From: Giardia intestinalis
Taxonomy: Eukaryota
Reading direction: 5' to 3' (one strand)
Assembly (NCBI GenBank): GCA_000002435.2
Contig: CM018793.1
DNA: 64,000 bases
Below the pieces are notes generated by a model. It was not told the DNA's origin. It saw only the letters and a program-made list of their open reading frames with translations, and did not search any database. The first letter of the stretch is position 1. Every line of letters starts with the position of its first letter. The translations under genes and the position numbers were made by a program. Below are positions 36,001 to 59,548 of the stretch, in pieces.

Positions 36001-39000
36001 NNNNNNNNNNNNNNNNNNNNNNNNNNNNNNNNNNNNNNNNNNNNNNNNNNNNNNNNNNNNNNNNNNNNNNNNNNNNNNNNNNNNNNNNNNNNNNNNNNNN
36101 NNNNNNNNNNNNNNNNNNNNNNNNNNNNNNNNNNNNNNNNNNNNNNNNNNNNNNNNNNNNNNNNNNNNNNNNNNNNNNNNNNNNNNNNNNNNNNNNNNNN
36201 NNNNNNNNNNNNNNNNNNNNNNNNNNNNNNNNNNNNNNNNNNNNNNNNNNNNNNNNNNNNNNNNNNNNNNNNNNNNNNNNNNNNNNNNNNNNNNNNNNNN
36301 NNNNNNNNNNNNNNNNNNNNNNNNNNNNNNNNNNNNNNNNNNNNNNNNNNNNNNNNNNNNNNNNNNNNNNNNNNNNNNNNNNNNNNNNNNNNNNNNNNNN
36401 NNNNNNNNNNNNNNNNNNNNNNNNNNNNNNNNNNNNNNNNNNNNNNNNNNNNNNNNNNNNNNNNNNNNNNNNNNNNNNNNNNNNNNNNNNNNNNNNNNNN
36501 NNNNNNNNNNNNNNNNNNNNNNNNNNNNNNNNNNNNNNNNNNNNNNNNNNNNNNNNNNNNNNNNNNNNNNNNNNNNNNNNNNNNNNNNNNNNNNNNNNNN
36601 NNNNNNNNNNNNNNNNNNNNNNNNNNNNNNNNNNNNNNNNNNNNNNNNNNNNNNNNNNNNNNNNNNNNNNNNNNNNNNNNNNNNNNNNNNNNNNNNNNNN
36701 NNNNNNNNNNNNNNNNNNNNNNNNNNNNNNNNNNNNNNNNNNNNNNNNNNNNNNNNNNNNNNNNNNNNNNNNNNNNNNNNNNNNNNNNNNNNNNNNNNNN
36801 NNNNNNNNNNNNNNNNNNNNNNNNNNNNNNNNNNNNNNNNNNNNNNNNNNNNNNNNNNNNNNNNNNNNNNNNNNNNNNNNNNNNNNNNNNNNNNNNNNNN
36901 NNNNNNNNNNNNNNNNNNNNNNNNNNNNNNNNNNNNNNNNNNNNNNNNNNNNNNNNNNNNNNNNNNNNNNNNNNNNNNNNNNNNNNNNNNNNNNNNNNNN
37001 NNNNNNNNNNNNNNNNNNNNNNNNNNNNNNNNNNNNNNNNNNNNNNNNNNNNNNNNNNNNNNNNNNNNNNNNNNNNNNNNNNNNNNNNNNNNNNNNNNNN
37101 NNNNNNNNNNNNNNNNNNNNNNNNNNNNNNNNNNNNNNNNNNNNNNNNNNNNNNNNNNNNNNNNNNNNNNNNNNNNNNNNNNNNNNNNNNNNNNNNNNNN
37201 NNNNNNNNNNNNNNNNNNNNNNNNNNNNNNNNNNNNNNNNNNNNNNNNNNNNNNNNNNNNNNNNNNNNNNNNNNNNNNNNNNNNNNNNNNNNNNNNNNNN
37301 NNNNNNNNNNNNNNNNNNNNNNNNNNNNNNNNNNNNNNNNNNNNNNNNNNNNNNNNNNNNNNNNNNNNNNNNNNNNNNNNNNNNNNNNNNNNNNNNNNNN
37401 NNNNNNNNNNNNNNNNNNNNNNNNNNNNNNNNNNNNNNNNNNNNNNNNNNNNNNNNNNNNNNNNNNNNNNNNNNNNNNNNNNNNNNNNNNNNNNNNNNNN
37501 NNNNNNNNNNNNNNNNNNNNNNNNNNNNNNNNNNNNNNNNNNNNNNNNNNNNNNNNNNNNNNNNNNNNNNNNNNNNNNNNNNNNNNNNNNNNNNNNNNNN
37601 NNNNNNNNNNNNNNNNNNNNNNNNNNNNNNNNNNNNNNNNNNNNNNNNNNNNNNNNNNNNNNNNNNNNNNNNNNNNNNNNNNNNNNNNNNNNNNNNNNNN
37701 NNNNNNNNNNNNNNNNNNNNNNNNNNNNNNNNNNNNNNNNNNNNNNNNNNNNNNNNNNNNNNNNNNNNNNNNNNNNNNNNNNNNNNNNNNNNNNNNNNNN
37801 NNNNNNNNNNNNNNNNNNNNNNNNNNNNNNNNNNNNNNNNNNNNNNNNNNNNNNNNNNNNNNNNNNNNNNNNNNNNNNNNNNNNNNNNNNNNNNNNNNNN
37901 NNNNNNNNNNNNNNNNNNNNNNNNNNNNNNNNNNNNNNNNNNNNNNNNNNNNNNNNNNNNNNNNNNNNNNNNNNNNNNNNNNNNNNNNNNNNNNNNNNNN
38001 NNNNNNNNNNNNNNNNNNNNNNNNNNNNNNNNNNNNNNNNNNNNNNNNNNNNNNNNNNNNNNNNNNNNNNNNNNNNNNNNNNNNNNNNNNNNNNNNNNNN
38101 NNNNNNNNNNNNNNNNNNNNNNNNNNNNNNNNNNNNNNNNNNNNNNNNNNNNNNNNNNNNNNNNNNNNNNNNNNNNNNNNNNNNNNNNNNNNNNNNNNNN
38201 NNNNNNNNNNNNNNNNNNNNNNNNNNNNNNNNNNNNNNNNNNNNNNNNNNNNNNNNNNNNNNNNNNNNNNNNNNNNNNNNNNNNNNNNNNNNNNNNNNNN
38301 NNNNNNNNNNNNNNNNNNNNNNNNNNNNNNNNNNNNNNNNNNNNNNNNNNNNNNNNNNNNNNNNNNNNNNNNNNNNNNNNNNNNNNNNNNNNNNNNNNNN
38401 NNNNNNNNNNNNNNNNNNNNNNNNNNNNNNNNNNNNNNNNNNNNNNNNNNNNNNNNNNNNNNNNNNNNNNNNNNNNNNNNNNNNNNNNNNNNNNNNNNNN
38501 NNNNNNNNNNNNNNNNNNNNNNNNNNNNNNNNNNNNNNNNNNNNNNNNNNNNNNNNNNNNNNNNNNNNNNNNNNNNNNNNNNNNNNNNNNNNNNNNNNNN
38601 NNNNNNNNNNNNNNNNNNNNNNNNNNNNNNNNNNNNNNNNNNNNNNNNNNNNNNNNNNNNNNNNNNNNNNNNNNNNNNNNNNNNNNNNNNNNNNNNNNNN
38701 NNNNNNNNNNNNNNNNNNNNNNNNNNNNNNNNNNNNNNNNNNNNNNNNNNNNNNNNNNNNNNNNNNNNNNNNNNNNNNNNNNNNNNNNNNNNNNNNNNNN
38801 NNNNNNNNNNNNNNNNNNNNNNNNNNNNNNNNNNNNNNNNNNNNNNNNNNNNNNNNNNNNNNNNNNNNNNNNNNNNNNNNNNNNNNNNNNNNNNNNNNNN
38901 NNNNNNNNNNNNNNNNNNNNNNNNNNNNNNNNNNNNNNNNNNNNNNNNNNNNNNNNNNNNNNNNNNNNNNNNNNNNNNNNNNNNNNNNNNNNNNNNNNNN

Positions 39001-42000
39001 NNNNNNNNNNNNNNNNNNNNNNNNNNNNNNNNNNNNNNNNNNNNNNNNNNNNNNNNNNNNNNNNNNNNNNNNNNNNNNNNNNNNNNNNNNNNNNNNNNNN
39101 NNNNNNNNNNNNNNNNNNNNNNNNNNNNNNNNNNNNNNNNNNNNNNNNNNNNNNNNNNNNNNNNNNNNNNNNNNNNNNNNNNNNNNNNNNNNNNNNNNNN
39201 NNNNNNNNNNNNNNNNNNNNNNNNNNNNNNNNNNNNNNNNNNNNNNNNNNNNNNNNNNNNNNNNNNNNNNNNNNNNNNNNNNNNNNNNNNNNNNNNNNNN
39301 NNNNNNNNNNNNNNNNNNNNNNNNNNNNNNNNNNNNNNNNNNNNNNNNNNNNNNNNNNNNNNNNNNNNNNNNNNNNNNNNNNNNNNNNNNNNNNNNNNNN
39401 NNNNNNNNNNNNNNNNNNNNNNNNNNNNNNNNNNNNNNNNNNNNNNNNNNNNNNNNNNNNNNNNNNNNNNNNNNNNNNNNNNNNNNNNNNNNNNNNNNNN
39501 NNNNNNNNNNNNNNNNNNNNNNNNNNNNNNNNNNNNNNNNNNNNNNNNNNNNNNNNNNNNNNNNNNNNNNNNNNNNNNNNNNNNNNNNNNNNNNNNNNNN
39601 NNNNNNNNNNNNNNNNNNNNNNNNNNNNNNNNNNNNNNNNNNNNNNNNNNNNNNNNNNNNNNNNNNNNNNNNNNNNNNNNNNNNNNNNNNNNNNNNNNNN
39701 NNNNNNNNNNNNNNNNNNNNNNNNNNNNNNNNNNNNNNNNNNNNNNNNNNNNNNNNNNNNNNNNNNNNNNNNNNNNNNNNNNNNNNNNNNNNNNNNNNNN
39801 NNNNNNNNNNNNNNNNNNNNNNNNNNNNNNNNNNNNNNNNNNNNNNNNNNNNNNNNNNNNNNNNNNNNNNNNNNNNNNNNNNNNNNNNNNNNNNNNNNNN
39901 NNNNNNNNNNNNNNNNNNNNNNNNNNNNNNNNNNNNNNNNNNNNNNNNNNNNNNNNNNNNNNNNNNNNNNNNNNNNNNNNNNNNNNNNNNNNNNNNNNNN
40001 NNNNNNNNNNNNNNNNNNNNNNNNNNNNNNNNNNNNNNNNNNNNNNNNNNNNNNNNNNNNNNNNNNNNNNNNNNNNNNNNNNNNNNNNNNNNNNNNNNNN
40101 NNNNNNNNNNNNNNNNNNNNNNNNNNNNNNNNNNNNNNNNNNNNNNNNNNNNNNNNNNNNNNNNNNNNNNNNNNNNNNNNNNNNNNNNNNNNNNNNNNNN
40201 NNNNNNNNNNNNNNNNNNNNNNNNNNNNNNNNNNNNNNNNNNNNNNNNNNNNNNNNNNNNNNNNNNNNNNNNNNNNNNNNNNNNNNNNNNNNNNNNNNNN
40301 NNNNNNNNNNNNNNNNNNNNNNNNNNNNNNNNNNNNNNNNNNNNNNNNNNNNNNNNNNNNNNNNNNNNNNNNNNNNNNNNNNNNNNNNNNNNNNNNNNNN
40401 NNNNNNNNNNNNNNNNNNNNNNNNNNNNNNNNNNNNNNNNNNNNNNNNNNNNNNNNNNNNNNNNNNNNNNNNNNNNNNNNNNNNNNNNNNNNNNNNNNNN
40501 NNNNNNNNNNNNNNNNNNNNNNNNNNNNNNNNNNNNNNNNNNNNNNNNNNNNNNNNNNNNNNNNNNNNNNNNNNNNNNNNNNNNNNNNNNNNNNNNNNNN
40601 NNNNNNNNNNNNNNNNNNNNNNNNNNNNNNNNNNNNNNNNNNNNNNNNNNNNNNNNNNNNNNNNNNNNNNNNNNNNNNNNNNNNNNNNNNNNNNNNNNNN
40701 NNNNNNNNNNNNNNNNNNNNNNNNNNNNNNNNNNNNNNNNNNNNNNNNNNNNNNNNNNNNNNNNNNNNNNNNNNNNNNNNNNNNNNNNNNNNNNNNNNNN
40801 NNNNNNNNNNNNNNNNNNNNNNNNNNNNNNNNNNNNNNNNNNNNNNNNNNNNNNNNNNNNNNNNNNNNNNNNNNNNNNNNNNNNNNNNNNNNNNNNNNNN
40901 NNNNNNNNNNNNNNNNNNNNNNNNNNNNNNNNNNNNNNNNNNNNNNNNNNNNNNNNNNNNNNNNNNNNNNNNNNNNNNNNNNNNNNNNNNNNNNNNNNNN
41001 NNNNNNNNNNNNNNNNNNNNNNNNNNNNNNNNNNNNNNNNNNNNNNNNNNNNNNNNNNNNNNNNNNNNNNNNNNNNNNNNNNNNNNNNNNNNNNNNNNNN
41101 NNNNNNNNNNNNNNNNNNNNNNNNNNNNNNNNNNNNNNNNNNNNNNNNNNNNNNNNNNNNNNNNNNNNNNNNNNNNNNNNNNNNNNNNNNNNNNNNNNNN
41201 NNNNNNNNNNNNNNNNNNNNNNNNNNNNNNNNNNNNNNNNNNNNNNNNNNNNNNNNNNNNNNNNNNNNNNNNNNNNNNNNNNNNNNNNNNNNNNNNNNNN
41301 NNNNNNNNNNNNNNNNNNNNNNNNNNNNNNNNNNNNNNNNNNNNNNNNNNNNNNNNNNNNNNNNNNNNNNNNNNNNNNNNNNNNNNNNNNNNNNNNNNNN
41401 NNNNNNNNNNNNNNNNNNNNNNNNNNNNNNNNNNNNNNNNNNNNNNNNNNNNNNNNNNNNNNNNNNNNNNNNNNNNNNNNNNNNNNNNNNNNNNNNNNNN
41501 NNNNNNNNNNNNNNNNNNNNNNNNNNNNNNNNNNNNNNNNNNNNNNNNNNNNNNNNNNNNNNNNNNNNNNNNNNNNNNNNNNNNNNNNNNNNNNNNNNNN
41601 NNNNNNNNNNNNNNNNNNNNNNNNNNNNNNNNNNNNNNNNNNNNNNNNNNNNNNNNNNNNNNNNNNNNNNNNNNNNNNNNNNNNNNNNNNNNNNNNNNNN
41701 NNNNNNNNNNNNNNNNNNNNNNNNNNNNNNNNNNNNNNNNNNNNNNNNNNNNNNNNNNNNNNNNNNNNNNNNNNNNNNNNNNNNNNNNNNNNNNNNNNNN
41801 NNNNNNNNNNNNNNNNNNNNNNNNNNNNNNNNNNNNNNNNNNNNNNNNNNNNNNNNNNNNNNNNNNNNNNNNNNNNNNNNNNNNNNNNNNNNNNNNNNNN
41901 NNNNNNNNNNNNNNNNNNNNNNNNNNNNNNNNNNNNNNNNNNNNNNNNNNNNNNNNNNNNNNNNNNNNNNNNNNNNNNNNNNNNNNNNNNNNNNNNNNNN

Positions 42001-45000
42001 NNNNNNNNNNNNNNNNNNNNNNNNNNNNNNNNNNNNNNNNNNNNNNNNNNNNNNNNNNNNNNNNNNNNNNNNNNNNNNNNNNNNNNNNNNNNNNNNNNNN
42101 NNNNNNNNNNNNNNNNNNNNNNNNNNNNNNNNNNNNNNNNNNNNNNNNNNNNNNNNNNNNNNNNNNNNNNNNNNNNNNNNNNNNNNNNNNNNNNNNNNNN
42201 NNNNNNNNNNNNNNNNNNNNNNNNNNNNNNNNNNNNNNNNNNNNNNNNNNNNNNNNNNNNNNNNNNNNNNNNNNNNNNNNNNNNNNNNNNNNNNNNNNNN
42301 NNNNNNNNNNNNNNNNNNNNNNNNNNNNNNNNNNNNNNNNNNNNNNNNNNNNNNNNNNNNNNNNNNNNNNNNNNNNNNNNNNNNNNNNNNNNNNNNNNNN
42401 NNNNNNNNNNNNNNNNNNNNNNNNNNNNNNNNNNNNNNNNNNNNNNNNNNNNNNNNNNNNNNNNNNNNNNNNNNNNNNNNNNNNNNNNNNNNNNNNNNNN
42501 NNNNNNNNNNNNNNNNNNNNNNNNNNNNNNNNNNNNNNNNNNNNNNNNNNNNNNNNNNNNNNNNNNNNNNNNNNNNNNNNNNNNNNNNNNNNNNNNNNNN
42601 NNNNNNNNNNNNNNNNNNNNNNNNNNNNNNNNNNNNNNNNNNNNNNNNNNNNNNNNNNNNNNNNNNNNNNNNNNNNNNNNNNNNNNNNNNNNNNNNNNNN
42701 NNNNNNNNNNNNNNNNNNNNNNNNNNNNNNNNNNNNNNNNNNNNNNNNNNNNNNNNNNNNNNNNNNNNNNNNNNNNNNNNNNNNNNNNNNNNNNNNNNNN
42801 NNNNNNNNNNNNNNNNNNNNNNNNNNNNNNNNNNNNNNNNNNNNNNNNNNNNNNNNNNNNNNNNNNNNNNNNNNNNNNNNNNNNNNNNNNNNNNNNNNNN
42901 NNNNNNNNNNNNNNNNNNNNNNNNNNNNNNNNNNNNNNNNNNNNNNNNNNNNNNNNNNNNNNNNNNNNNNNNNNNNNNNNNNNNNNNNNNNNNNNNNNNN
43001 NNNNNNNNNNNNNNNNNNNNNNNNNNNNNNNNNNNNNNNNNNNNNNNNNNNNNNNNNNNNNNNNNNNNNNNNNNNNNNNNNNNNNNNNNNNNNNNNNNNN
43101 NNNNNNNNNNNNNNNNNNNNNNNNNNNNNNNNNNNNNNNNNNNNNNNNNNNNNNNNNNNNNNNNNNNNNNNNNNNNNNNNNNNNNNNNNNNNNNNNNNNN
43201 NNNNNNNNNNNNNNNNNNNNNNNNNNNNNNNNNNNNNNNNNNNNNNNNNNNNNNNNNNNNNNNNNNNNNNNNNNNNNNNNNNNNNNNNNNNNNNNNNNNN
43301 NNNNNNNNNNNNNNNNNNNNNNNNNNNNNNNNNNNNNNNNNNNNNNNNNNNNNNNNNNNNNNNNNNNNNNNNNNNNNNNNNNNNNNNNNNNNNNNNNNNN
43401 NNNNNNNNNNNNNNNNNNNNNNNNNNNNNNNNNNNNNNNNNNNNNNNNNNNNNNNNNNNNNNNNNNNNNNNNNNNNNNNNNNNNNNNNNNNNNNNNNNNN
43501 NNNNNNNNNNNNNNNNNNNNNNNNNNNNNNNNNNNNNNNNNNNNNNNNNNNNNNNNNNNNNNNNNNNNNNNNNNNNNNNNNNNNNNNNNNNNNNNNNNNN
43601 NNNNNNNNNNNNNNNNNNNNNNNNNNNNNNNNNNNNNNNNNNNNNNNNNNNNNNNNNNNNNNNNNNNNNNNNNNNNNNNNNNNNNNNNNNNNNNNNNNNN
43701 NNNNNNNNNNNNNNNNNNNNNNNNNNNNNNNNNNNNNNNNNNNNNNNNNNNNNNNNNNNNNNNNNNNNNNNNNNNNNNNNNNNNNNNNNNNNNNNNNNNN
43801 NNNNNNNNNNNNNNNNNNNNNNNNNNNNNNNNNNNNNNNNNNNNNNNNNNNNNNNNNNNNNNNNNNNNNNNNNNNNNNNNNNNNNNNNNNNNNNNNNNNN
43901 NNNNNNNNNNNNNNNNNNNNNNNNNNNNNNNNNNNNNNNNNNNNNNNNNNNNNNNNNNNNNNNNNNNNNNNNNNNNNNNNNNNNNNNNNNNNNNNNNNNN
44001 NNNNNNNNNNNNNNNNNNNNNNNNNNNNNNNNNNNNNNNNNNNNNNNNNNNNNNNNNNNNNNNNNNNNNNNNNNNNNNNNNNNNNNNNNNNNNNNNNNNN
44101 NNNNNNNNNNNNNNNNNNNNNNNNNNNNNNNNNNNNNNNNNNNNNNNNNNNNNNNNNNNNNNNNNNNNNNNNNNNNNNNNNNNNNNNNNNNNNNNNNNNN
44201 NNNNNNNNNNNNNNNNNNNNNNNNNNNNNNNNNNNNNNNNNNNNNNNNNNNNNNNNNNNNNNNNNNNNNNNNNNNNNNNNNNNNNNNNNNNNNNNNNNNN
44301 NNNNNNNNNNNNNNNNNNNNNNNNNNNNNNNNNNNNNNNNNNNNNNNNNNNNNNNNNNNNNNNNNNNNNNNNNNNNNNNNNNNNNNNNNNNNNNNNNNNN
44401 NNNNNNNNNNNNNNNNNNNNNNNNNNNNNNNNNNNNNNNNNNNNNNNNNNNNNNNNNNNNNNNNNNNNNNNNNNNNNNNNNNNNNNNNNNNNNNNNNNNN
44501 NNNNNNNNNNNNNNNNNNNNNNNNNNNNNNNNNNNNNNNNNNNNNNNNNNNNNNNNNNNNNNNNNNNNNNNNNNNNNNNNNNNNNNNNNNNNNNNNNNNN
44601 NNNNNNNNNNNNNNNNNNNNNNNNNNNNNNNNNNNNNNNNNNNNNNNNNNNNNNNNNNNNNNNNNNNNNNNNNNNNNNNNNNNNNNNNNNNNNNNNNNNN
44701 NNNNNNNNNNNNNNNNNNNNNNNNNNNNNNNNNNNNNNNNNNNNNNNNNNNNNNNNNNNNNNNNNNNNNNNNNNNNNNNNNNNNNNNNNNNNNNNNNNNN
44801 NNNNNNNNNNNNNNNNNNNNNNNNNNNNNNNNNNNNNNNNNNNNNNNNNNNNNNNNNNNNNNNNNNNNNNNNNNNNNNNNNNNNNNNNNNNNNNNNNNNN
44901 NNNNNNNNNNNNNNNNNNNNNNNNNNNNNNNNNNNNNNNNNNNNNNNNNNNNNNNNNNNNNNNNNNNNNNNNNNNNNNNNNNNNNNNNNNNNNNNNNNNN

Positions 45001-48000
45001 NNNNNNNNNNNNNNNNNNNNNNNNNNNNNNNNNNNNNNNNNNNNNNNNNNNNNNNNNNNNNNNNNNNNNNNNNNNNNNNNNNNNNNNNNNNNNNNNNNNN
45101 NNNNNNNNNNNNNNNNNNNNNNNNNNNNNNNNNNNNNNNNNNNNNNNNNNNNNNNNNNNNNNNNNNNNNNNNNNNNNNNNNNNNNNNNNNNNNNNNNNNN
45201 NNNNNNNNNNNNNNNNNNNNNNNNNNNNNNNNNNNNNNNNNNNNNNNNNNNNNNNNNNNNNNNNNNNNNNNNNNNNNNNNNNNNNNNNNNNNNNNNNNNN
45301 NNNNNNNNNNNNNNNNNNNNNNNNNNNNNNNNNNNNNNNNNNNNNNNNNNNNNNNNNNNNNNNNNNNNNNNNNNNNNNNNNNNNNNNNNNNNNNNNNNNN
45401 NNNNNNNNNNNNNNNNNNNNNNNNNNNNNNNNNNNNNNNNNNNNNNNNNNNNNNNNNNNNNNNNNNNNNNNNNNNNNNNNNNNNNNNNNNNNNNNNNNNN
45501 NNNNNNNNNNNNNNNNNNNNNNNNNNNNNNNNNNNNNNNNNNNNNNNNNNNNNNNNNNNNNNNNNNNNNNNNNNNNNNNNNNNNNNNNNNNNNNNNNNNN
45601 NNNNNNNNNNNNNNNNNNNNNNNNNNNNNNNNNNNNNNNNNNNNNNNNNNNNNNNNNNNNNNNNNNNNNNNNNNNNNNNNNNNNNNNNNNNNNNNNNNNN
45701 NNNNNNNNNNNNNNNNNNNNNNNNNNNNNNNNNNNNNNNNNNNNNNNNNNNNNNNNNNNNNNNNNNNNNNNNNNNNNNNNNNNNNNNNNNNNNNNNNNNN
45801 NNNNNNNNNNNNNNNNNNNNNNNNNNNNNNNNNNNNNNNNNNNNNNNNNNNNNNNNNNNNNNNNNNNNNNNNNNNNNNNNNNNNNNNNNNNNNNNNNNNN
45901 NNNNNNNNNNNNNNNNNNNNNNNNNNNNNNNNNNNNNNNNNNNNNNNNNNNNNNNNNNNNNNNNNNNNNNNNNNNNNNNNNNNNNNNNNNNNNNNNNNNN
46001 NNNNNNNNNNNNNNNNNNNNNNNNNNNNNNNNNNNNNNNNNNNNNNNNNNNNNNNNNNNNNNNNNNNNNNNNNNNNNNNNNNNNNNNNNNNNNNNNNNNN
46101 NNNNNNNNNNNNNNNNNNNNNNNNNNNNNNNNNNNNNNNNNNNNNNNNNNNNNNNNNNNNNNNNNNNNNNNNNNNNNNNNNNNNNNNNNNNNNNNNNNNN
46201 NNNNNNNNNNNNNNNNNNNNNNNNNNNNNNNNNNNNNNNNNNNNNNNNNNNNNNNNNNNNNNNNNNNNNNNNNNNNNNNNNNNNNNNNNNNNNNNNNNNN
46301 NNNNNNNNNNNNNNNNNNNNNNNNNNNNNNNNNNNNNNNNNNNNNNNNNNNNNNNNNNNNNNNNNNNNNNNNNNNNNNNNNNNNNNNNNNNNNNNNNNNN
46401 NNNNNNNNNNNNNNNNNNNNNNNNNNNNNNNNNNNNNNNNNNNNNNNNNNNNNNNNNNNNNNNNNNNNNNNNNNNNNNNNNNNNNNNNNNNNNNNNNNNN
46501 NNNNNNNNNNNNNNNNNNNNNNNNNNNNNNNNNNNNNNNNNNNNNNNNNNNNNNNNNNNNNNNNNNNNNNNNNNNNNNNNNNNNNNNNNNNNNNNNNNNN
46601 NNNNNNNNNNNNNNNNNNNNNNNNNNNNNNNNNNNNNNNNNNNNNNNNNNNNNNNNNNNNNNNNNNNNNNNNNNNNNNNNNNNNNNNNNNNNNNNNNNNN
46701 NNNNNNNNNNNNNNNNNNNNNNNNNNNNNNNNNNNNNNNNNNNNNNNNNNNNNNNNNNNNNNNNNNNNNNNNNNNNNNNNNNNNNNNNNNNNNNNNNNNN
46801 NNNNNNNNNNNNNNNNNNNNNNNNNNNNNNNNNNNNNNNNNNNNNNNNNNNNNNNNNNNNNNNNNNNNNNNNNNNNNNNNNNNNNNNNNNNNNNNNNNNN
46901 NNNNNNNNNNNNNNNNNNNNNNNNNNNNNNNNNNNNNNNNNNNNNNNNNNNNNNNNNNNNNNNNNNNNNNNNNNNNNNNNNNNNNNNNNNNNNNNNNNNN
47001 NNNNNNNNNNNNNNNNNNNNNNNNNNNNNNNNNNNNNNNNNNNNNNNNNNNNNNNNNNNNNNNNNNNNNNNNNNNNNNNNNNNNNNNNNNNNNNNNNNNN
47101 NNNNNNNNNNNNNNNNNNNNNNNNNNNNNNNNNNNNNNNNNNNNNNNNNNNNNNNNNNNNNNNNNNNNNNNNNNNNNNNNNNNNNNNNNNNNNNNNNNNN
47201 NNNNNNNNNNNNNNNNNNNNNNNNNNNNNNNNNNNNNNNNNNNNNNNNNNNNNNNNNNNNNNNNNNNNNNNNNNNNNNNNNNNNNNNNNNNNNNNNNNNN
47301 NNNNNNNNNNNNNNNNNNNNNNNNNNNNNNNNNNNNNNNNNNNNNNNNNNNNNNNNNNNNNNNNNNNNNNNNNNNNNNNNNNNNNNNNNNNNNNNNNNNN
47401 NNNNNNNNNNNNNNNNNNNNNNNNNNNNNNNNNNNNNNNNNNNNNNNNNNNNNNNNNNNNNNNNNNNNNNNNNNNNNNNNNNNNNNNNNNNNNNNNNNNN
47501 NNNNNNNNNNNNNNNNNNNNNNNNNNNNNNNNNNNNNNNNNNNNNNNNNNNNNNNNNNNNNNNNNNNNNNNNNNNNNNNNNNNNNNNNNNNNNNNNNNNN
47601 NNNNNNNNNNNNNNNNNNNNNNNNNNNNNNNNNNNNNNNNNNNNNNNNNNNNNNNNNNNNNNNNNNNNNNNNNNNNNNNNNNNNNNNNNNNNNNNNNNNN
47701 NNNNNNNNNNNNNNNNNNNNNNNNNNNNNNNNNNNNNNNNNNNNNNNNNNNNNNNNNNNNNNNNNNNNNNNNNNNNNNNNNNNNNNNNNNNNNNNNNNNN
47801 NNNNNNNNNNNNNNNNNNNNNNNNNNNNNNNNNNNNNNNNNNNNNNNNNNNNNNNNNNNNNNNNNNNNNNNNNNNNNNNNNNNNNNNNNNNNNNNNNNNN
47901 NNNNNNNNNNNNNNNNNNNNNNNNNNNNNNNNNNNNNNNNNNNNNNNNNNNNNNNNNNNNNNNNNNNNNNNNNNNNNNNNNNNNNNNNNNNNNNNNNNNN

Positions 48001-55438: not shown

Positions 55439-57772
55439 CTACTCTGAGAGGATGGCTAGTATCTCGCTATTGCCCTCGGCTATGTCCAAGAGCTTCCTCC
55501 TGTTTATGTTCTTCTCCTTCTCTGCGAGGAGTCTCACACACTCTATCTGGCTGCAGGATACTGCCCACATGAGGGCGGTCCATCCGTCACTATCCTGCAT
55601 CCCACCCTCCTTCTCCAAGAGCAGCGCGACGTGGGCAGAGTGACCTTCCTTTGCTGCAGCCATAAGAGCTGTCTGTCCATTGTTACTTCTCATACTTCCT
55701 TCCTTTTCTAGTAGGAGCTTAAAACAGTCTGTGCTACCATACCTTGCTGCAAGCATAAGGGCTGTTTCGCCATCCTCATTCCGCATCCCGCCCTCCTTCT
55801 CTAGCAATATTCTAGTGCAGCCTGCGTGGCCACTCTCTGCTGCCCTTATGAGGGCTGTCCATCCAAAAATATCCTGCATGCCTGCCTCTTCCTCTAGGAG
55901 CAGCTCCACTATCTCTGCGTGGCCACGTGCTGCTGCCAGCGTGAGGGCTGTCTCGCTACTATCACTCTTCATCCCGCCCTCCTTCTCTAGTAGGAGCCTG
56001 ACGCACTCTGGGTGGCCACTCTCTGCCGCCCCCATGAGGGCGGTCCGTCCAAACCCATCCTGTACCCCGCCCTCCCTCTTTAGCAATAGTCTAACACAGT
56101 CTCCGTGACCTCCCTCTGCTGCAAACACAAGGGCGGTCCGTCCATAGCTGTCTTGTACCCCGCCCTCCTTCTCCAAGAGTATGTCCACTATCTCTCCATG
56201 GCCCTCCTCTGCTGCCCGCATGAGGGCGGTATCGCCAGCAGCAAGTAAATACGTCATCACCCTCCGTTCCTCCAGCATACTCCGTTCCACGAGCCCTTTC
56301 GTGATCGCCATGTCCACTTTCATGCCCCCCTCTTTCTCCAGTAATAGCTTGACGCACTCTGGGTGGCCCCTCTCTGCCGCCCGCATGAGGGCGGTCCATC
56401 CGTCACGATCCTTCATCCCCGCCTCCTGAAGGCTACTCCTCACTGCATCAGCATCTCCAATGTAAGCAGCATACATAAGGCTCGTCCAGCCCGAGGCAGC
56501 ACGCTCACGGTCGTTTCCCACCAGTAGCTTAACACAGTCTTGCTTGTCATTCTGCTCTGCTGTCACGAGGGCTGTCACCCCATCACTAGTCTGCATCCCG
56601 CCCTCCCTCTCCAGGAGCAGCGCGACACATTCTCTGTGGCCTTCTTTTGCTGCAAGCACGAGGGCAGTCTGGCCGTCACTATCCTTCATGCCCGCCTCCT
56701 TCTCCACGAGCAGCTCCACTATCTCTGCGTGGCCTTCCTCTGCCGTCCTTATGAGAGCGGTCTCGCCATACCTATCCCGCATCCCGCCCTCCTTCTTTAC
56801 TAGTAGTCTAACACAATCTGAATGGTTTCTCTCTGCTGCCAGCATGAGGGCGGTTTCGCCATCCTCATTCTGCACGCCTCCCTCCTTCTCCAGGAGCAGC
56901 TCCACTATCTCTGCGTGGCCACGGACTGCTGCCCTCATAAGGGCTGTTCCCTCGCTGATGGCCCAGCAGCCCATCGCGACATCCCCCGTCGCCTTCTGTC
57001 CCCCCTGGAGAGGAAGGAGGGCCTTCACAGTATCTACATCATTTCTGTCAACAGCTCGCATGAGGGCAGTGACGCCATTCTCATCTGTGGGATCGAGGAG
57101 CTCCACGACGTCCTTGTGCCTCGCTCTGGCAGCAATCATCAGTGCGGTATTGCCGTCATTGTTCCTCTTGTCCTTGTCTGAGAGGTGTTCCTTGACTGTT
57201 GTGACGTCCCCCGTGAAGGACGCGCACATGAGAGGGGTCCACGAGGGGGCCTCATGCTCGCGAAGAAGCAGAGCTATGTCTGTGTGCTTGTTCCTGAGGG
57301 CGTGCACGAAGGCCGTGTTACCGTCCTTGTCCTTCAGCCCCTTCTCATGGTCAAGAAGGAGCTTTACTACTTCAAGGCTCCCCTGCTGTGCGGCGATCAT
57401 CAGGGCGGTGCGACCGTTATTGTCTTCTTTTCTATGCTCATGAGGGACGAGGATCCTAGCTGCCTCGGGATGGTTCCTATGTGCGGCGTGCATGAGCGCG
57501 GTCCAGCCGTTCTTGTCCCTGAGACCCTTCTCCTTCTCAACAAGCAGCTCAACGGGGCCAGTGTGCCCCTGCTGGGCTGCATGCATGAGGGCTGTCATTC
57601 CCTGCTTATCACGCTGGCCGGTGACTCCCTCTTCAAGTAGCACCCGGACGGTCTCTGTGTCATTCGTGTGTGCAGCACGGACCAGCTTGGGTAGCAGGTG
57701 AGCCTCAGGTTGAAGGGTAATCGTAGCTGCTGCGCCACTGAGTTGCATAACCTGACCTTCTCGTGCCTGCAT
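55439..57772 (-). CDS. Ankyrin-repeat protein, 777 aa with ~22 ANK repeats (Giardia 'protein 21.1'-like family)
   Basis: A single 2.3-kb ORF with no internal stop. It carries ~22 tandem 33-aa modules of the form (D/N)G.TALM.AA..GH.E.V.LLLEKEGGM. An in-frame TGA lies 10 codons upstream of the ATG, so the ORF cannot extend 5'. An A/T-rich patch (caaaaaatacttatccaca) sits directly before the ATG. A poly(A) signal lies 4 nt after the stop. Confidence 0.85.
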   Translation of the reverse strand: MQAREGQVMQLSGAAATITLQPEAHLLPKLVRAAHTNDTETVRVLLEEGVTGQRDKQGMTALMHAAQQGHTGPVELLVEKEKGLRDKNGWTALMHAAHRNHPEAARILVPHEHRKEDNNGRTALMIAAQQGSLEVVKLLLDHEKGLKDKDGNTAFVHALRNKHTDIALLLREHEAPSWTPLMCASFTGDVTTVKEHLSDKDKRNNDGNTALMIAARARHKDVVELLDPTDENGVTALMRAVDRNDVDTVKALLPLQGGQKATGDVAMGCWAISEGTALMRAAVRGHAEIVELLLEKEGGVQNEDGETALMLAAERNHSDCVRLLVKKEGGMRDRYGETALIRTAEEGHAEIVELLVEKEAGMKDSDGQTALVLAAKEGHRECVALLLEREGGMQTSDGVTALVTAEQNDKQDCVKLLVGNDRERAASGWTSLMYAAYIGDADAVRSSLQEAGMKDRDGWTALMRAAERGHPECVKLLLEKEGGMKVDMAITKGLVERSMLEERRVMTYLLAAGDTALMRAAEEGHGEIVDILLEKEGGVQDSYGRTALVFAAEGGHGDCVRLLLKREGGVQDGFGRTALMGAAESGHPECVRLLLEKEGGMKSDSSETALTLAAARGHAEIVELLLEEEAGMQDIFGWTALIRAAESGHAGCTRILLEKEGGMRNEDGETALMLAARYGSTDCFKLLLEKEGSMRSNNGQTALMAAAKEGHSAHVALLLEKEGGMQDSDGWTALMWAVSCSQIECVRLLAEKEKNINRRKLLDIAEGNSEILAILSE
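55500..57100. repeat. Intragenic tandem DNA repeats (~99-bp ankyrin-repeat modules, several nearly identical at the DNA level)
   Basis: The motif cat(c/g)ccgccctcc(t/c)tctc(c/t)a(g/a)gag(c/t)agc recurs at ~55597, 55787, 55970, 56080, 56157, 56590, 56691, 56788 and 56875. The longer block gcagctccactatctctgcgtggcc recurs at ~55900, ~56711 and ~56892. Confidence 0.6.
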
Positions 57773-58887
57773 TGTGGATAAGTATTTTTTGTCCGGCCTT
57801 CAAGAGCGTCAATCCCAGGGGTCTTGAGTCGAGGCTCCTGTCCTAGGGAGCTGGTCTTGCTTGGCCTGTTCTCGAGGGCTGCCTCAAGAGCAGTGACCTT
57901 ATCCGACTCGACCTTGAGCTCGTCCTTCAGAAGCACGATATTAGCATTAGCGCCATTCAGCGCAGCCTCCAAAACGCTGCACTTGTCCTCTAGTGCCACA
58001 CACCGATGTCCCAGCTCACTAACTGGGATGTCGAATGTGGCGAGCGTCTCGTGCAGCTCCCTGGCTGTCGGCCTCCTCTCTGGCTCCAGCACGAATATCC
58101 GCTCCAGAACACTCTTTATGAAGCCGTCGGTGACACCGCTCAGGTCCGGCCTCCACCCGTCGACGAAGACGTCTTTTGGGTCTTTACCTTCTAGGAAGTC
58201 CGGTCTCCTCAGAGTTACTAATTCATAAATGATGACCCCGAGGCTCCATACGTCGGAGGCGGGGCTGGCCTCGTTGTGGAGGAGCACCTCGGGGGCCACG
58301 TATACTGCCGTGCTTACAATGGTGCTCCCGCATCTCAGGGCGTCCTTGCAGAGGCCGAGGCCAGCGATGACGAAGTACTCACCATCTGCGCTGATGAGGA
58401 CGTTGGCAGGCCTGAGGTCGCGGTGGACAAATCCATTAACACTTACCCCATTGACGCCGTGGAGGTAGGCGAGGGCGGCAGCGATCTGCCTCAGGACGGA
58501 GAGGACCACGCCGGCAGACATGGGGATCTTCCTTCGCTTGTGCTCAGTGAGGAGGCGCTCGAGGGTCTTGTCGTGGCGATTCATGACGACGTAGATGAGG
58601 CCCTCGCCTTCGACTACTTGATGGTGCTTGAGAACCCCCGGGTTGGAGAGGTCAAGAAGAGCGGCCAGCTCGAGCCTGATGGCGCCTAAATCCCTCTTAT
58701 CCGGGCCATCGAGGAGGATCTCCTTCACAGCGAGGCTCGGATGGCCCCTAAGGGAGTAGACTGTCCCCATGGTGCTTTCATTAAGCACACTGCCCAACCG
58801 CCTGTGGAGCTTCTTACGAGTGAATTGTGGGATGGCGGGGGCTGCTGCAGGGGGGCTGGCTGCCGTCGGCCATGAAGTTTGTTTCAA
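57595..58887 (-). CDS. NEK-like Ser/Thr protein kinase with C-terminal coiled coil. It is a probable pseudokinase, and its start and stop are both questionable. It may be a pseudogene or the 5' part of a fused NEK-ankyrin gene.
   Basis: Kinase subdomains present: LAVKEI (beta3 Lys), RLELAALLDL (alphaC Glu), HRDLRPANVL (catalytic loop), YVAPEVL (APE), DVWSLGVIIYEL. The DFG motif is replaced by AGLGL and the glycine loop is degenerate (RLGSVLNESTMGTVY). The C-terminal ~100 aa form a heptad-like coiled coil (ALEDKCSVLEAALNGANANIVLLKDELKVESDKVTALEAALEN). The track's 'M' at 58887 is actually TTG. The first ATG (58768-58770) lies after the glycine-loop region. The ORF runs 178 nt into the ankyrin ORF, and no AGTRAAY follows its stop. 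Confidence 0.7.
   Translation of the reverse strand: MKQTSWPTAASPPAAAPAIPQFTRKKLHRRLGSVLNESTMGTVYSLRGHPSLAVKEILLDGPDKRDLGAIRLELAALLDLSNPGVLKHHQVVEGEGLIYVVMNRHDKTLERLLTEHKRRKIPMSAGVVLSVLRQIAAALAYLHGVNGVSVNGFVHRDLRPANVLISADGEYFVIAGLGLCKDALRCGSTIVSTAVYVAPEVLLHNEASPASDVWSLGVIIYELVTLRRPDFLEGKDPKDVFVDGWRPDLSGVTDGFIKSVLERIFVLEPERRPTARELHETLATFDIPVSELGHRCVALEDKCSVLEAALNGANANIVLLKDELKVESDKVTALEAALENRPSKTSSLGQEPRLKTPGIDALEGRTKNTYPQCRHEKVRLCNSVAQQLRLPFNLRLTCYPSWSVLHTRMTQRPSGCYLKRESPASVISRE
57773..57800 (-). promoter_or_regulatory. A/T-rich initiator-like element immediately 5' of the ankyrin ATG (plus-strand T6 at 57784-57789)
   Basis: The minus strand reads ggacAAAAAATACTTATCCACA-ATG. Giardia promoters are short A/T-rich elements within ~20-60 bp of the start codon, with 5'UTRs of only a few nt. 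The same A6 tract is the candidate frameshift site discussed in the findings. Confidence 0.4.
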
Positions 58888-59548
58888 AAATCGTTCACTC
58901 TGCCCACTAGTACTTGCAAGGCTATGTTATAGGGCCCTCTGCGGGTGTAGTCGAGGCGCACACAAGCATGGCTGCCTCTTCAGAGACAGGGGTGTCGCCC
59001 TTCAAGGCCGGGGTTCTTCATCAATGCTCCACACTGGCGTCAGCATGCTGCTGGAATCTCTGGGCTGTTCCTGTCCAGTCGATGCGTGCGTGCCAGAACG
59101 CTTGGTTTCCATCCTTTCCGCCGCGCTAGAGTCACGCTGGCCTTGATCGGCCGCTCTCTCCTCAATTGGTCTCATCTGCTTGGCAAGGACCACAGAGGTT
59201 GGCTGGAAGCGTCGCTTGGAAGGAATCGAGTGGCCGGCTCTCGAGCGTCACCCGACGAGCTTCGTTGGGCATTCGTTTCCGAGCCGGCAACATTGACGGC
59301 CGCAGAGCTCCTGGGCGTTCCTCGATCAGGGATGGGCCGAGCTGCTCGGTTCGTGGCCTCTTGTCCATTCCTCGTTATCGGGCACAGTTAGCCACCAAGC
59401 GGTCTACATATGCTGTTCGAGCCACACCTACAACAAGCCAGCGGCACAGCGCTAGAGCAGCCGTTAAGTCGAGCGAATCACCCCAAGCAGATGCTCAGAT
59501 CTGTCCCGCGCTCAGAGGTCAGTGTCCCTCCACCTCTTGCCCATTATT

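What the first reader, a model, noticed from the sequence alone, without database searches (positions are those of the whole stretch)
58760..59010. NEK kinase gene has TTG where its initiator ATG is expected
The kinase domain begins at ~IPQFTRKKLHRRLGSV (beta1/glycine-loop equivalent), about 20 codons into the track ORF. Those 20 codons are 58830-58887, well upstream of the first ATG at 58768-58770. The codon at the top of the ORF (58885-58887) is TTG in an A/T-rich context (gaacgattttTTGaaacaa) that resembles a Giardia start context. The nearest in-frame ATG (58768-58770, MGTVYSL…) lies after the glycine-loop region. An in-frame TAA sits at 58927-58929, and there is no ATG between it and the TTG. 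An AGTGAAC heptamer (58893-58899, minus) lies 6 nt upstream of the TTG. The possibilities are ATG to TTG start-codon loss (a pseudogene or sequencing error), initiation at Met40 giving an N-truncated pseudokinase, or non-AUG initiation, which is not known in Giardia.
Basis: seen in the sequence. Interest (0 to 1): 0.5.

Follow-up and report, generated by a model that had tools for sequence, protein, structure and literature searches.

The report
Frameshifted subtelomeric Giardia NEK kinase copy
The kinase gene still has its original ATG start codon, 14 bases downstream of the supposed "TTG start", but an 11-base loss just after that ATG puts it out of frame, so this is an ordinary decaying copy of a well-known, fast-evolving Giardia gene family and not a case of unusual translation initiation.

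Summary
The kinase-frame ORF (58887-57595, minus strand) opens with TTG, has an in-frame TAA upstream, and has no in-frame ATG before Met40 (58770-58768). That ATG and its A/T-rich context (TTTTTRAAACAAAYTTCATG) are conserved in relatives, where the "TTG" reads TTTTTA, so the TTG is promoter/leader sequence. Four relatives have exactly 21 codons from this ATG to the Phe of the PxF motif; the window has 52 nt. That is a net loss of 11 nt inside a 13-nt segment with no homopolymer, so a PacBio homopolymer error is unlikely. The ATG now opens a 19-codon dead-end ORF. The deposited annotation (KAE8304594.1, Giardia intestinalis WB chr5) starts at Met40, inside the degenerate Gly-loop. The locus is the kinase-ankyrin pair of a Giardia "telomere gene unit". 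It abuts truncated rRNA genes and the large rDNA assembly gap, and it is colinear with a true P15 chromosome end. A second frame break, at an A6 run (57790-57785), separates kinase from ankyrin repeats and is shared with another WB copy. DFG is replaced by GLG. NEK pseudogenes are documented as common in Giardia. Low interest.

The parts
58874..58890 (-). Conserved A/T-rich start context (TTTTTGAAACAAACTTC) directly upstream of the ancestral ATG. Homology to the P15 chromosome-end unit begins at 58890.
   Evidence: TTTTTRAAACAAAYTTCATG is conserved in P15 L001 and ENA L002, which have TTTTTA where the window has TTTTTG; blastn colinearity with L001 starts at 58890; 11/15 A+T upstream of the ATG. 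A-rich initiators next to Giardia start codons: PMC7641422, PMC7866390.
58871..58873 (-). Ancestral initiator ATG, intact but now in the +1 frame relative to the kinase.
   Evidence: position and frame. (aligned with the annotated ATG of P0003 and P0002). P0237/P0011 read ...LETNFMAGGS... and P0238 starts MADGDDYTASPPAAAP, versus the window's ...FETNFMADGS.
58814..58873 (-). Residual 19-codon ORF, MADGSQPPCSSPRHPTIHS, plus its TAA (58816-58814). This is what the ancestral ATG now encodes.
58858..58870 (-). 13-nt segment (GCCGACGGCAGCC) that holds the frame break, a net 11 nt shorter than the 24 nt found in relatives. The alignment places the gap between 58863 and 58862.
   Evidence: an 11-column gap against both P15 and ENA; four relatives have 21 codons from ATG to Phe, the window has 52 nt; no homopolymer of 3 or more in the segment; the downstream C6 and C5 runs have the same lengths as in P15.
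57595..58887 (-). Mechanical kinase-frame ORF (430 codons). Real kinase-homologous coding runs from about 58862 to 57787. The deposited CDS (KAE8304594.1, 391 aa) is 58770-57595. The last ~64 codons (57786-57598) are an out-of-frame tail.
   Evidence: ORF. (P0001 is 100% identical from Met40). (Pkinase profile 11-257 at residues 39-278). (tblastn: homology to P0004 ends at 57787).
58354..58362 (-). GLG in place of the DFG motif, so the Mg-binding Asp (D184 equivalent) is lost. By sequence this is a 'dead' kinase.
   Evidence: VIAGLGLCKD versus IIADFGLCKD in P0238. Criterion from PMC3218828 (loss of K72, D166 or D184).
57784..57790 (-). Second frame break: an A6 run (57790-57785) where an A7 would keep kinase and ankyrin repeats in one frame. 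It reads A_AAA_AAT in phase with the kinase frame.
   Evidence: P0004 residues 18-349 in frame -2 to 57787, residues 349-674 in frame -1 from 57790. (codon phase). (same out-of-frame tail, GRTKNTYPQC[R/K]HEKVRLCNSV, in P0238). (no downstream structure).
55439..57772 (-). Ankyrin-repeat ORF (777 aa from its first ATG; homology in this frame starts at 57790). It is the ANK component of the unit.
   Evidence: (13 Ank_2 stretches). (the frame-corrected 1146-aa product aligns to P0237 residues 73-1114). (no identical protein is deposited).
55428..55434 (-). AGTAAAC, a polyadenylation-type signal 5 nt after the ankyrin ORF's stop. It is the only minus-strand AGTRAAY downstream of the kinase.
54296..55347 (-). 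5'-truncated LSU rRNA (model positions 1891-3399) directly downstream of the ankyrin gene. The ANK-rDNA junction is the same as at the P15 chromosome end.
   Evidence: (81% identity over 1064 nt across the junction). (in L001 the rRNA fragment is followed by (TAGGG)n).
51946..53115 (-). Partial SSU rRNA (two fragments) at the edge of the assembly gap.
   Evidence: PMC7000408 (partial 18S rRNAs flank the largest gap, at the 5' end of chr5).
1..51888 (.). Run of N, the assembly gap.

Best explanation
This is the protein-kinase gene (gPK, a NEK-family kinase) of a Giardia intestinalis WB 'telomere gene unit'. It lies next to the rDNA at the 5' end of chromosome 5, and its 5' end has been disrupted by a small deletion. 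The ancestral promoter/initiator context and ATG (58873-58871) are intact. A net loss of 11 nt within the next 13 nt shifts the kinase into another frame, so the conserved ATG now encodes only a 19-residue peptide. The TTG is part of the A/T-rich leader and not a start codon. The longest-ORF view (TTG) and the deposited annotation (Met40) are both by-products of this lesion. The copy also has GLG instead of DFG. It carries the family-typical split between kinase and ankyrin repeats, a 1-nt loss in an A-run that it shares with another WB copy. The most likely status is a pseudogene, or at best a weakly expressed N-terminally truncated pseudokinase, in a family known for rapid duplication and decay. 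Shown: the conserved ATG, the 11-nt length difference, the frame relationships, the gene-unit context and the shared second break. Inferred: that the deletion is real rather than an assembly error, and that little or no kinase protein is made.
For: The window is G. intestinalis WB: P0001 = KAE8304594.1/XP_037902123.1 is 100% identical from Met40 and sits on a 4.02-Mb contig. The ATG and its context are conserved at DNA level in P15 and in an ENA Giardia contig, with an 11-nt gap in the window right after codon 4-5. Four relatives (P0003, P0002, P0237 from Met73, P0238) have exactly 21 codons from ATG to the PxF Phe; the window has 52 nt. The window's ATG frame reads FETNFMADGS, versus LETNFMAGGS in P0237 and MADG... 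in P0238. Its kinase frame matches relatives only from AASPPAAAPAIPQF onward. The break lies in a 13-nt stretch without homopolymers, and the adjacent C6 and C5 runs match P15. The assembly paper reports homopolymer frameshifts as the PacBio error type (PMC7000408). A frame-corrected 1146-aa product aligns from residue 1 to Met73 of the intact 1114-aa WB NEK P0237 and through to its C-terminus. Gene-unit context: kinase, ankyrin, truncated LSU rRNA, SSU rRNA, then gap. This is colinear with the P15 chromosome end, VSP-NEK-ANK-rRNA-(TAGGG)n, and matches the published telomere gene unit (PMC10999387). The second break is shared with P0238, a 72%-identical copy from the Sanger-era assembly. Literature: 26 pseudogenised NEKs in WB (PMC7641422) and 'rampant gene duplication and pseudogenization' of Nek-GL4 (PMC3218828).
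Against: No second assembly and no reads of this exact locus could be reached, so the 11-nt loss rests on one assembly, next to an unresolved repeat where paralogous copies could confuse consensus calling or short-read polishing. The nearest DNA relatives are paralogs or distant orthologs (about 75% nt, 66-72% aa), so the exact ancestral sequence and the number of events (one 11-nt event, or 3 + 8 nt) cannot be fixed. The kinase frame is otherwise open for 430 codons and the ankyrin frame for 777 codons with no internal stops, so the lesion is recent or some constraint remains. At least one Giardia NEK pseudogene is reported as transcribed (PMC3218828). Expression of this locus was not tested.
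Confidence: 0.8

Rival explanations
1. Assembly or consensus error. The real chromosome has an intact 5' end, and the 11-nt loss arose from mis-assembled or mis-polished reads of near-identical subtelomeric copies beside the rDNA gap.
For: The locus directly abuts the largest unresolved gap of the assembly (PMC7000408). [quoted passage not shown] No independent copy of the locus was available.
Against: The reported PacBio errors are homopolymer indels. The break lies in GCCGACGGCAGCC, which has no homopolymer of 3 or more, and the nearby C6 and C5 runs have the same lengths as in P15. Coverage was 200x with repeated Quiver polishing. Frame breaks in this family are real elsewhere: the A6 break is shared with a copy in the Sanger assembly.
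Confidence: 0.13
2. The gene is expressed as annotated: translation starts at Met40 (58770-58768) and gives a 391-aa N-terminally truncated pseudokinase that acts as a scaffold.
For: This is the deposited model. The ORF stays open. The 15 nt upstream of Met40 are moderately A/T-rich (9/15, with 6 A). Most Giardia NEKs are catalytically dead yet retained (PMC3218828), and this copy already has GLG for DFG.
Against: Met40 corresponds to Pkinase profile position ~12, inside the Gly-loop, so beta1 and most of the loop would be missing. None of the full-length family members examined starts there; those with an intact 5' end carry 35-39 more N-terminal residues. It is the third AUG downstream of the conserved initiator, after two short out-of-frame ORFs. 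To my knowledge (not from a tool or a paper read here), Giardia mRNAs have very short leaders and use the first AUG. The C-terminal ~64 residues of the model are an out-of-frame tail.
Confidence: 0.12
3. Non-AUG initiation at the TTG (58887-58885) produces the 430-aa protein.
For: It is the first bacterial-type start codon in the open frame and lies in an A/T-rich context.
Against: The TTG is TTA in both DNA relatives. It lies in the conserved leader, 14 nt upstream of the conserved ATG and probably at or upstream of the transcription start. The codons it would add (LKQTSWPT) have no homolog and are the out-of-frame reading of the conserved leader plus ATGGCCGACGG. The tool's 'TTG start' is purely mechanical.
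Confidence: 0.01
4. Recoding rescues the gene. A +1 shift near the end of the 19-codon ORF (TCG TAA G) enters the kinase frame, and/or a -1 slip on the in-phase A_AAA_AAT heptamer (57790-57784) fuses kinase to ankyrin repeats.
For: A +1 shift at TCG-TAA-G lands in the kinase frame. A_AAA_AAT fits the X_XXY_YYZ pattern in phase, a -1 slip enters the ankyrin frame, and the site is shared by two copies. From my own knowledge, Giardiavirus uses -1 frameshifting in Giardia.
Against: There is no stable structure downstream of the heptamer (z = -0.78 and +1.48, like the control segments). Losing one A from an ACA-AAA-AAA run creates this heptamer automatically, so the motif is not independent evidence. 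A +1 event at the 5' end would discard the conserved SPPAAAPAIPQF segment. Other copies break at different places, as expected for decay.
Confidence: 0.03

Closest known systems
Giardia telomere gene unit (TGU): VSP/CRP gene, protein kinase gene (gPK), ankyrin gene (ANK), followed by rDNA and telomere repeats (Upcroft et al. 1997/2010 and Prabhu et al. 2007, as summarised in PMC10999387)
   Same: The kinase ORF is followed on the same strand by an ankyrin ORF and then a truncated LSU rRNA gene. The ANK-rDNA junction is the same as at a true P15 chromosome end that finishes in (TAGGG)n. The 1997 GenBank 'protein kinase' entries AAB51601.1 and AAB51602.1 are among the closest relatives.
   Different: There is no VSP/CRP gene upstream. 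Instead there is a ~650-nt ORF-poor spacer and a 1482-aa unrelated gene. No telomere repeat lies in the window, where the rDNA runs into an assembly gap. The kinase's 5' end is frameshifted.
Giardia NEK kinases with coiled coil and ankyrin repeats, in particular the fast-evolving Nek-GL4 subfamily and its pseudogenes (Manning et al. 2011, PMC3218828)
   Same: All the strongest hits (58 proteins, E ≤ 3.2e-36) are Giardia-type NEK or ankyrin proteins; bacterial kinases follow only at E ≥ 1.4e-17. The ancestral kinase / coiled-coil / ankyrin architecture can be reconstructed. A catalytic residue is lost (DFG to GLG). There are frame disruptions like those of the ~26-30 documented NEK pseudogenes.
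   Different: Assignment to GL4 was not tested. This copy is deposited as a normal protein-coding gene starting at Met40, not as a pseudogene.
P0237 (KAE8301902.1 / XP_001708993.1), an intact 1114-aa WB NEK on another chromosome-size contig
   Same: It has the same start context at protein level (LETNFMAGGS...) and the same domain order, and is 57% identical to the frame-corrected window product from its Met73 to its C-terminus.
   Different: P0237 is in one frame throughout and keeps DFG and a GxGxxG loop. The window copy has two frame breaks, GLG and a degenerate Gly-loop.
P0238 (XP_001703982.1), a 376-aa WB gPK from the older assembly
   Same: It starts MADG... and shares the A-run frame break and the out-of-frame tail GRTKNTYPQC[K/R]HEKVRLCNSV.
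   Different: Its 5' end is in frame (21 codons to Phe) and it keeps GRGVTG and DFG. It is only 72% identical across the kinase domain.

Membership tests
Eukaryotic protein kinase domain (Pfam PF00069) | Significant match to the Pkinase profile above the curated cut-off | tested here: met
   111 bits (cut-off 31.7), profile 11-257 at ORF residues 39-278.
Catalytically competent kinase (criterion of PMC3218828) | K72, D166 and D184 equivalents all present | tested here: not met
   AVKE Lys and HRD Asp are present, but DFG is replaced by GLG (58362-58354). The Gly-loop is also degenerate (NESTMG versus GRGVTG in P0237/P0238).
Giardia NEK family | Closest relatives are Giardia NEKs; kinase domain followed by coiled coil and ankyrin repeats | tested here: met
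   (top 58 hits are Giardia-type NEK or ankyrin proteins; bacterial kinases only from E 1.4e-17). (kinase and ankyrin homology contiguous across the A6 frame break).
Nek-GL4 subfamily | Clustering with GL4 members in the kinome classification | not tested
   ORF identifiers of GL4 members were not mapped to the hits. The assignment is suggested only by the family's behaviour: strain-variable, many pseudogenes.
Telomere gene unit (TGU) | Protein kinase gene followed by ankyrin gene on the same strand | tested here: met
Telomere gene unit (TGU) | rRNA genes directly distal to the ankyrin gene | tested here: met
   (LSU fragment 55347-54296, SSU 53115-51946). (same junction as in P15 L001).
Telomere gene unit (TGU) | Cysteine-rich/VSP gene proximal to the kinase gene | tested here: not met
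   tblastn with the P15 unit's VSP finds nothing in the window; no family hits for the ORFs in 58769-59801.
Telomere gene unit (TGU) | Telomere repeats (TAGGG)n beyond the rDNA | tested here: inconclusive
   no run of 3 or more TAGGG in the window; the rDNA runs into 51,888 Ns, so the distal sequence is unknown.
Non-AUG (near-cognate) initiation | Near-cognate codon conserved in relatives, with conserved in-frame coding sequence between it and the first AUG | tested here: not met
   TTG is TTA in the relatives; the kinase-frame codons upstream of the break have no homolog. The conserved ATG is in another frame.
Programmed -1 ribosomal frameshift site | X_XXY_YYZ heptamer in phase with the upstream frame | tested here: met
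   A_AAA_AAT at 57790-57784, in phase. This is an automatic result of losing one A from ACA-AAA-AAA.
Programmed -1 ribosomal frameshift site | Stable stimulatory structure 5-9 nt downstream | tested here: not met
   z = -0.78 (85 nt) and +1.48 (55 nt), within the range of three control segments. Pseudoknots were not modelled.
Pseudogene (disrupted copy of a coding gene) | Reading frame disrupted relative to intact homologs | tested here: met
   two frame breaks relative to P0237, P0004 and P0003.
Pseudogene (disrupted copy of a coding gene) | No functional product made | not testable with these tools
   This needs reads, transcript 5' ends, ribosome profiling or proteomics.

The most novel reading that the evidence does not exclude
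The two-ORF kinase/ankyrin arrangement of Giardia telomere gene units might not be decay. It could be a recoding device: a -1 slip on the in-phase A_AAA_AAT heptamer, shared by at least two WB copies, would make a minor NEK-ankyrin fusion alongside a kinase-only product, as Giardiavirus does for gag-pol. In this copy, a +1 event at TCG-TAA-G could likewise reconnect the conserved ATG to the kinase.
Probability: 0.03. Interest if true: 0.6.

Novelty: new member of a known kind. Interest (0 to 1): 0.12.

Why it matters
The practical value is for annotation. The deposited model KAE8304594.1/XP_037902123.1 (391 aa from Met40) is almost certainly not a natural protein. Its N-terminus is set by a 5' frameshift, and its last ~64 residues are an out-of-frame tail. 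The adjacent 777-aa ankyrin ORF is not among the deposited proteins. Flagging the pair as a disrupted telomere-gene-unit NEK would improve counts of the Giardia kinome and its pseudogenes. It also gives a dated example of how subtelomeric NEK/ankyrin copies decay: a private 11-nt deletion on top of an inherited A-run frameshift, with signs of exchange between copies. It does not bear on translation-initiation biology, because there is no evidence for non-AUG initiation in Giardia here.

Tried and rejected
1. Independent copies of the same locus. Exact-product look-ups for P0001, the 430-aa ORF, the 777-aa ankyrin ORF, P0016 and P0237 all returned 'not on record'. A protein search with the ankyrin ORF found no hit above 58% identity, not even a self-hit. 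A metagenome scan across the deletion junction found nothing. A scan with the conserved start context gave 11 loci, none encoding a related kinase; these are chance matches in unrelated DNA.

2. Single-base homopolymer error in the C6/C5 runs. This was my first idea. I rejected it because the kinase frame is already homologous through both runs (SPPAAAP), the runs have the same lengths as in P15, and the length difference is 11 nt upstream of them.

3. A tiny intron. GTAAG...CACAG (16 nt, 58817-58802) would join the ATG frame to the kinase frame. I rejected it because, to my knowledge, 16 nt is well below the size of known Giardia introns, and splicing there would discard the conserved SPPAAAPAIPQFTRKKLH segment, which is homologous in the kinase frame.

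4. Programmed frameshifting at A_AAA_AAT. No downstream structure was found.

5. AGTGAAC as a meaningful signal for this gene. It lies upstream of the start, in bases absent from the relatives, so it is treated as chance or orphan.

6. A VSP remnant or any other gene in the 58900-59548 spacer or on the opposite strand. No tblastn or Pfam hits.

7. The two DH (assemblage AII) relatives, L003 and L004, belong to a sub-lineage with a different 5' region and did not help place the deletion.
Full report
**What is in the sequence.** On the minus strand, an open frame runs from 58887 to 57595 (430 codons). Its first bacterial-type start codon is TTG at 58887-58885. An in-frame TAA lies at 58929-58927, and the first in-frame ATG is at 58770-58768, which is codon 40. 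All coordinates in the finding are therefore correct. It opens a 19-codon ORF, MADGSQPPCSSPRHPTIHS, that ends at TAA 58816-58814.

**Identity of the locus.**
- The ORF from Met40 onward is 100% identical to a deposited 391-aa protein, 'Kinase, NEK' of Giardia intestinalis WB (KAE8304594.1 / XP_037902123.1). It sits on a 4,018,654-bp contig. So the public annotation starts this gene at Met40.
- The next-best relatives are only 66-72% identical, and all are Giardia-type NEK kinases.
- The first 51,888 bases of the window are Ns.
- Real sequence begins with partial SSU rRNA (51946-53115) and a 5'-truncated LSU rRNA (54296-55347), both on the minus strand.
- Next come a 777-aa ankyrin-repeat ORF (55439-57772) and then the kinase ORF.
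- This matches the description of the new WB assembly, whose largest gap, at the 5' end of chromosome 5, is flanked by partial 18S rRNAs (PMC7000408).
- A true chromosome end from isolate P15 (locus L001) has VSP, NEK, ANK, an LSU rRNA fragment and (TAGGG)n. It is colinear with the window from 58890 down to 54901, including the same ankyrin-rRNA junction at 81% identity over 1064 nt.
- The window's unit lacks the VSP.

**Where the gene really starts.** Full-length family members start about 35-39 residues before the Met40 equivalent. Examples are MTGSGDHTTSPPAAAPNIPQF (P15, P0003), MTDSGSHIPSPQAVAPSVPQF (ENA contig, P0002) and MADGDDYTASPPAAAPVIPQF (WB, P0238). The intact 1114-aa WB NEK P0237, and its 1997 GenBank relative AAB51601.1, read through ...LETNFMAGGSNHAASPPAVAPSVPHF. 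The window's +1 frame reads ...FETNFMADGS, and its kinase frame reads ...AASPPAAAPAIPQF.

At DNA level, the ATG at 58873-58871 and the 17 nt before it align with the annotated start codons of P0003 and P0002 (TTTTTRAAACAAAYTTCATG). Homology to the P15 unit begins at 58890, exactly at this element. An A-rich initiator directly upstream of the start codon is the general Giardia promoter feature (PMC7641422; PMC7866390). The TTG is therefore leader or promoter sequence, and the conserved ATG is the ancestral initiator.

**The lesion.** All four relatives have exactly 21 codons (63 nt) from the ATG to the Phe of the PxF motif. The window has 52 nt. The alignment shows a single 11-column gap right after ATGGCCGACGG. 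An alternative placement as 3 + 8 nt is equally possible. The difference is confined to the 13 nt between the ATG and AGCCCCCC (58870-58858, GCCGACGGCAGCC, against 24 nt in the relatives). This segment has no homopolymer of three or more. The C6 and C5 runs just downstream have the same lengths as in P15 and already read in the kinase frame as SPPAAAP.

The assembly paper reports that PacBio errors causing frameshifts were homopolymer errors, partly corrected with Illumina reads. An 11-nt loss in non-homopolymer sequence at 200x coverage does not fit that error type. I therefore consider the deletion most likely real (about 0.75-0.8), but I could not reach reads or a second assembly of this locus.

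**Consequences for the protein.**
- Pfam's Pkinase match begins at profile position 11, at ORF residue 39. Met40 thus lies inside the Gly-loop, which is already degenerate here (NESTMG, against GRGVTG in P0237 and P0238).
- A Met40 start would remove beta1 and most of the loop.
- On a transcript from the conserved initiator, Met40 is the third AUG, after the 19-codon ORF and an 18-codon ORF starting at 58781.
- The copy has GLG instead of DFG (58362-58354), so it would count as catalytically dead by the K72/D166/D184 criterion (PMC3218828).

**A second frame break.**
- tblastn with full-length NEKs shows homology in the kinase frame down to 57787, continuing at the same query residue in the ankyrin frame from 57790.
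- The switch is at an A6 run (57790-57785) where A7 would keep one frame. The last ~64 codons of the kinase ORF are therefore an out-of-frame tail.
- A conceptual product corrected at both sites (1146 aa) aligns from its first residue to Met73 of P0237 and on to P0237's C-terminus, at 57% identity.
- The same out-of-frame tail, GRTKNTYPQC[R/K]HEKVRLCNSV, ends P0238 (XP_001703982.1). P0238 is a different WB copy (72% identity in the kinase) from the Sanger-era annotation (Table 1 of PMC7000408). This break is therefore inherited or exchanged among copies and is not a PacBio artefact. It fits the literature's description of gPK and ANK as separate genes.
- The only minus-strand AGTRAAY polyadenylation-type motif downstream of the kinase lies 5 nt after the ankyrin stop, at 55434-55428. 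This suggests the pair still forms one ancestral transcription unit, although a consensus match is weak evidence.
- Other family members are truncated at various other positions, as expected for independent decay.

**Alternatives considered.**
- Non-AUG initiation at TTG is rejected. The codon is not conserved, it lies in the leader, and the residues it would add have no homologs.
- In the kinase frame the A6 site reads A_AAA_AAT, which is formally a -1 slippery heptamer whose slip would enter the ankyrin frame. The motif arises automatically from losing one A from ACA-AAA-AAA. The downstream RNA folds no better than shuffles or control segments (z = -0.78 and +1.48).
- A +1 event at TCG-TAA-G, or a 16-nt GT...AG 'intron', would each reconnect the ATG frame to the kinase frame. 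Both would discard the conserved SPPAAAPAIPQF segment, and there is no precedent for either here.
- Assembly error remains the main rival, at about 0.13.

**Comparison with what is known.** NEKs are Giardia's largest and most dynamic kinase family. 71% lack a catalytic residue, and the GL4 subfamily shows 'rampant gene duplication and pseudogenization', with 30 extra pseudogenes found in WB (PMC3218828). The newer annotation counts 26 pseudogenised NEKs (PMC7641422). A frameshifted, DFG-less NEK copy in a subtelomeric gene unit is therefore an expected kind of object. What is specific here is the exact lesion, and the fact that the deposited gene model (Met40 start, out-of-frame C-terminal tail) hides it.

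**Verdict.** This is a new member of a known kind, and interest is low (0.12).

Noticed in passing
window 1-51888: The first 51,888 bases are Ns. Only ~12.1 kb of the window is real sequence. This matches the largest assembly gap (putative rDNA array) at the 5' end of WB chromosome 5 described in PMC7000408.
   Followed up: yes
window 51946-55347 (-): There are rRNA gene fragments. The LSU is truncated at model position 1891 and starts ~80 nt after the ankyrin gene's polyA-type signal. The SSU is in two pieces at the gap edge. The LSU truncation junction is shared with the P15 chromosome end (L001), so the gene-unit/rDNA junction predates the split of assemblages A and E or has been homogenised.
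   Followed up: partly
window 55439-57772 (-): The 777-aa ankyrin ORF has no identical protein in the 5.8-billion-protein collection (best hits at most 58% identity), although the adjacent kinase ORF does. It is apparently unannotated, or marked as a pseudogene, in the deposited record.
   Followed up: partly
window 57598-57960 (-) versus P0238: Similarity is mosaic. The window kinase is 72% identical to P0238 overall, but 50 of the last 52 aligned residues, including the out-of-frame tail, are identical. Just before that lies a divergent coiled-coil stretch with a 14-residue gap. This suggests gene conversion or recombination between telomere-gene-unit copies.
   Followed up: no
window 58893-59548 (-): A ~650-nt ORF-poor spacer lies between the stop of the 1482-aa gene (59549) and the kinase start context. 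It has no family hits on either strand and no similarity to the P15 unit, which is long for Giardia. No AGTRAAY follows the 1482-aa ORF's stop. The next one on that strand is the AGTGAAC at 58899-58893, which lies in bases absent from the relatives. Its role, if any, is unexplained.
   Followed up: partly
window 59549-63997 (-): The 1482-aa ORF upstream of the kinase has only weak, sub-threshold beta-propeller/WD40-type Pfam matches around residues 721-807. Otherwise it is uncharacterised.
   Followed up: no
L001 4120-6170 (P15, ACVC01000194.1): The P15 unit is also split into NEK (422 aa) and ANK (610 aa) ORFs, but at a different place: after ...VRVMLEGG, beside a G-run. The ankyrin C-terminus (…IIAILSES*) seems to lie in yet another frame beyond the called stop. 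These may be real decay or sequencing errors in that draft assembly.
   Followed up: no
P0237 (KAE8301902.1) and P0011 (AAB51601.1): Both are annotated from upstream in-frame ATGs (72 and 84 residues before the conserved Met in ...LETNFMAGGS...). These N-terminal extensions are probably translated leader/promoter sequence, so the gene models are likely over-extended.
   Followed up: no
window 58802-58817 (-): A 16-nt GTAAG...CACAG stretch would, if removed, join the 19-codon ATG frame to the kinase frame at RLGSV. I judge this a coincidence: it is too short for an intron and would delete conserved residues.
   Followed up: yes
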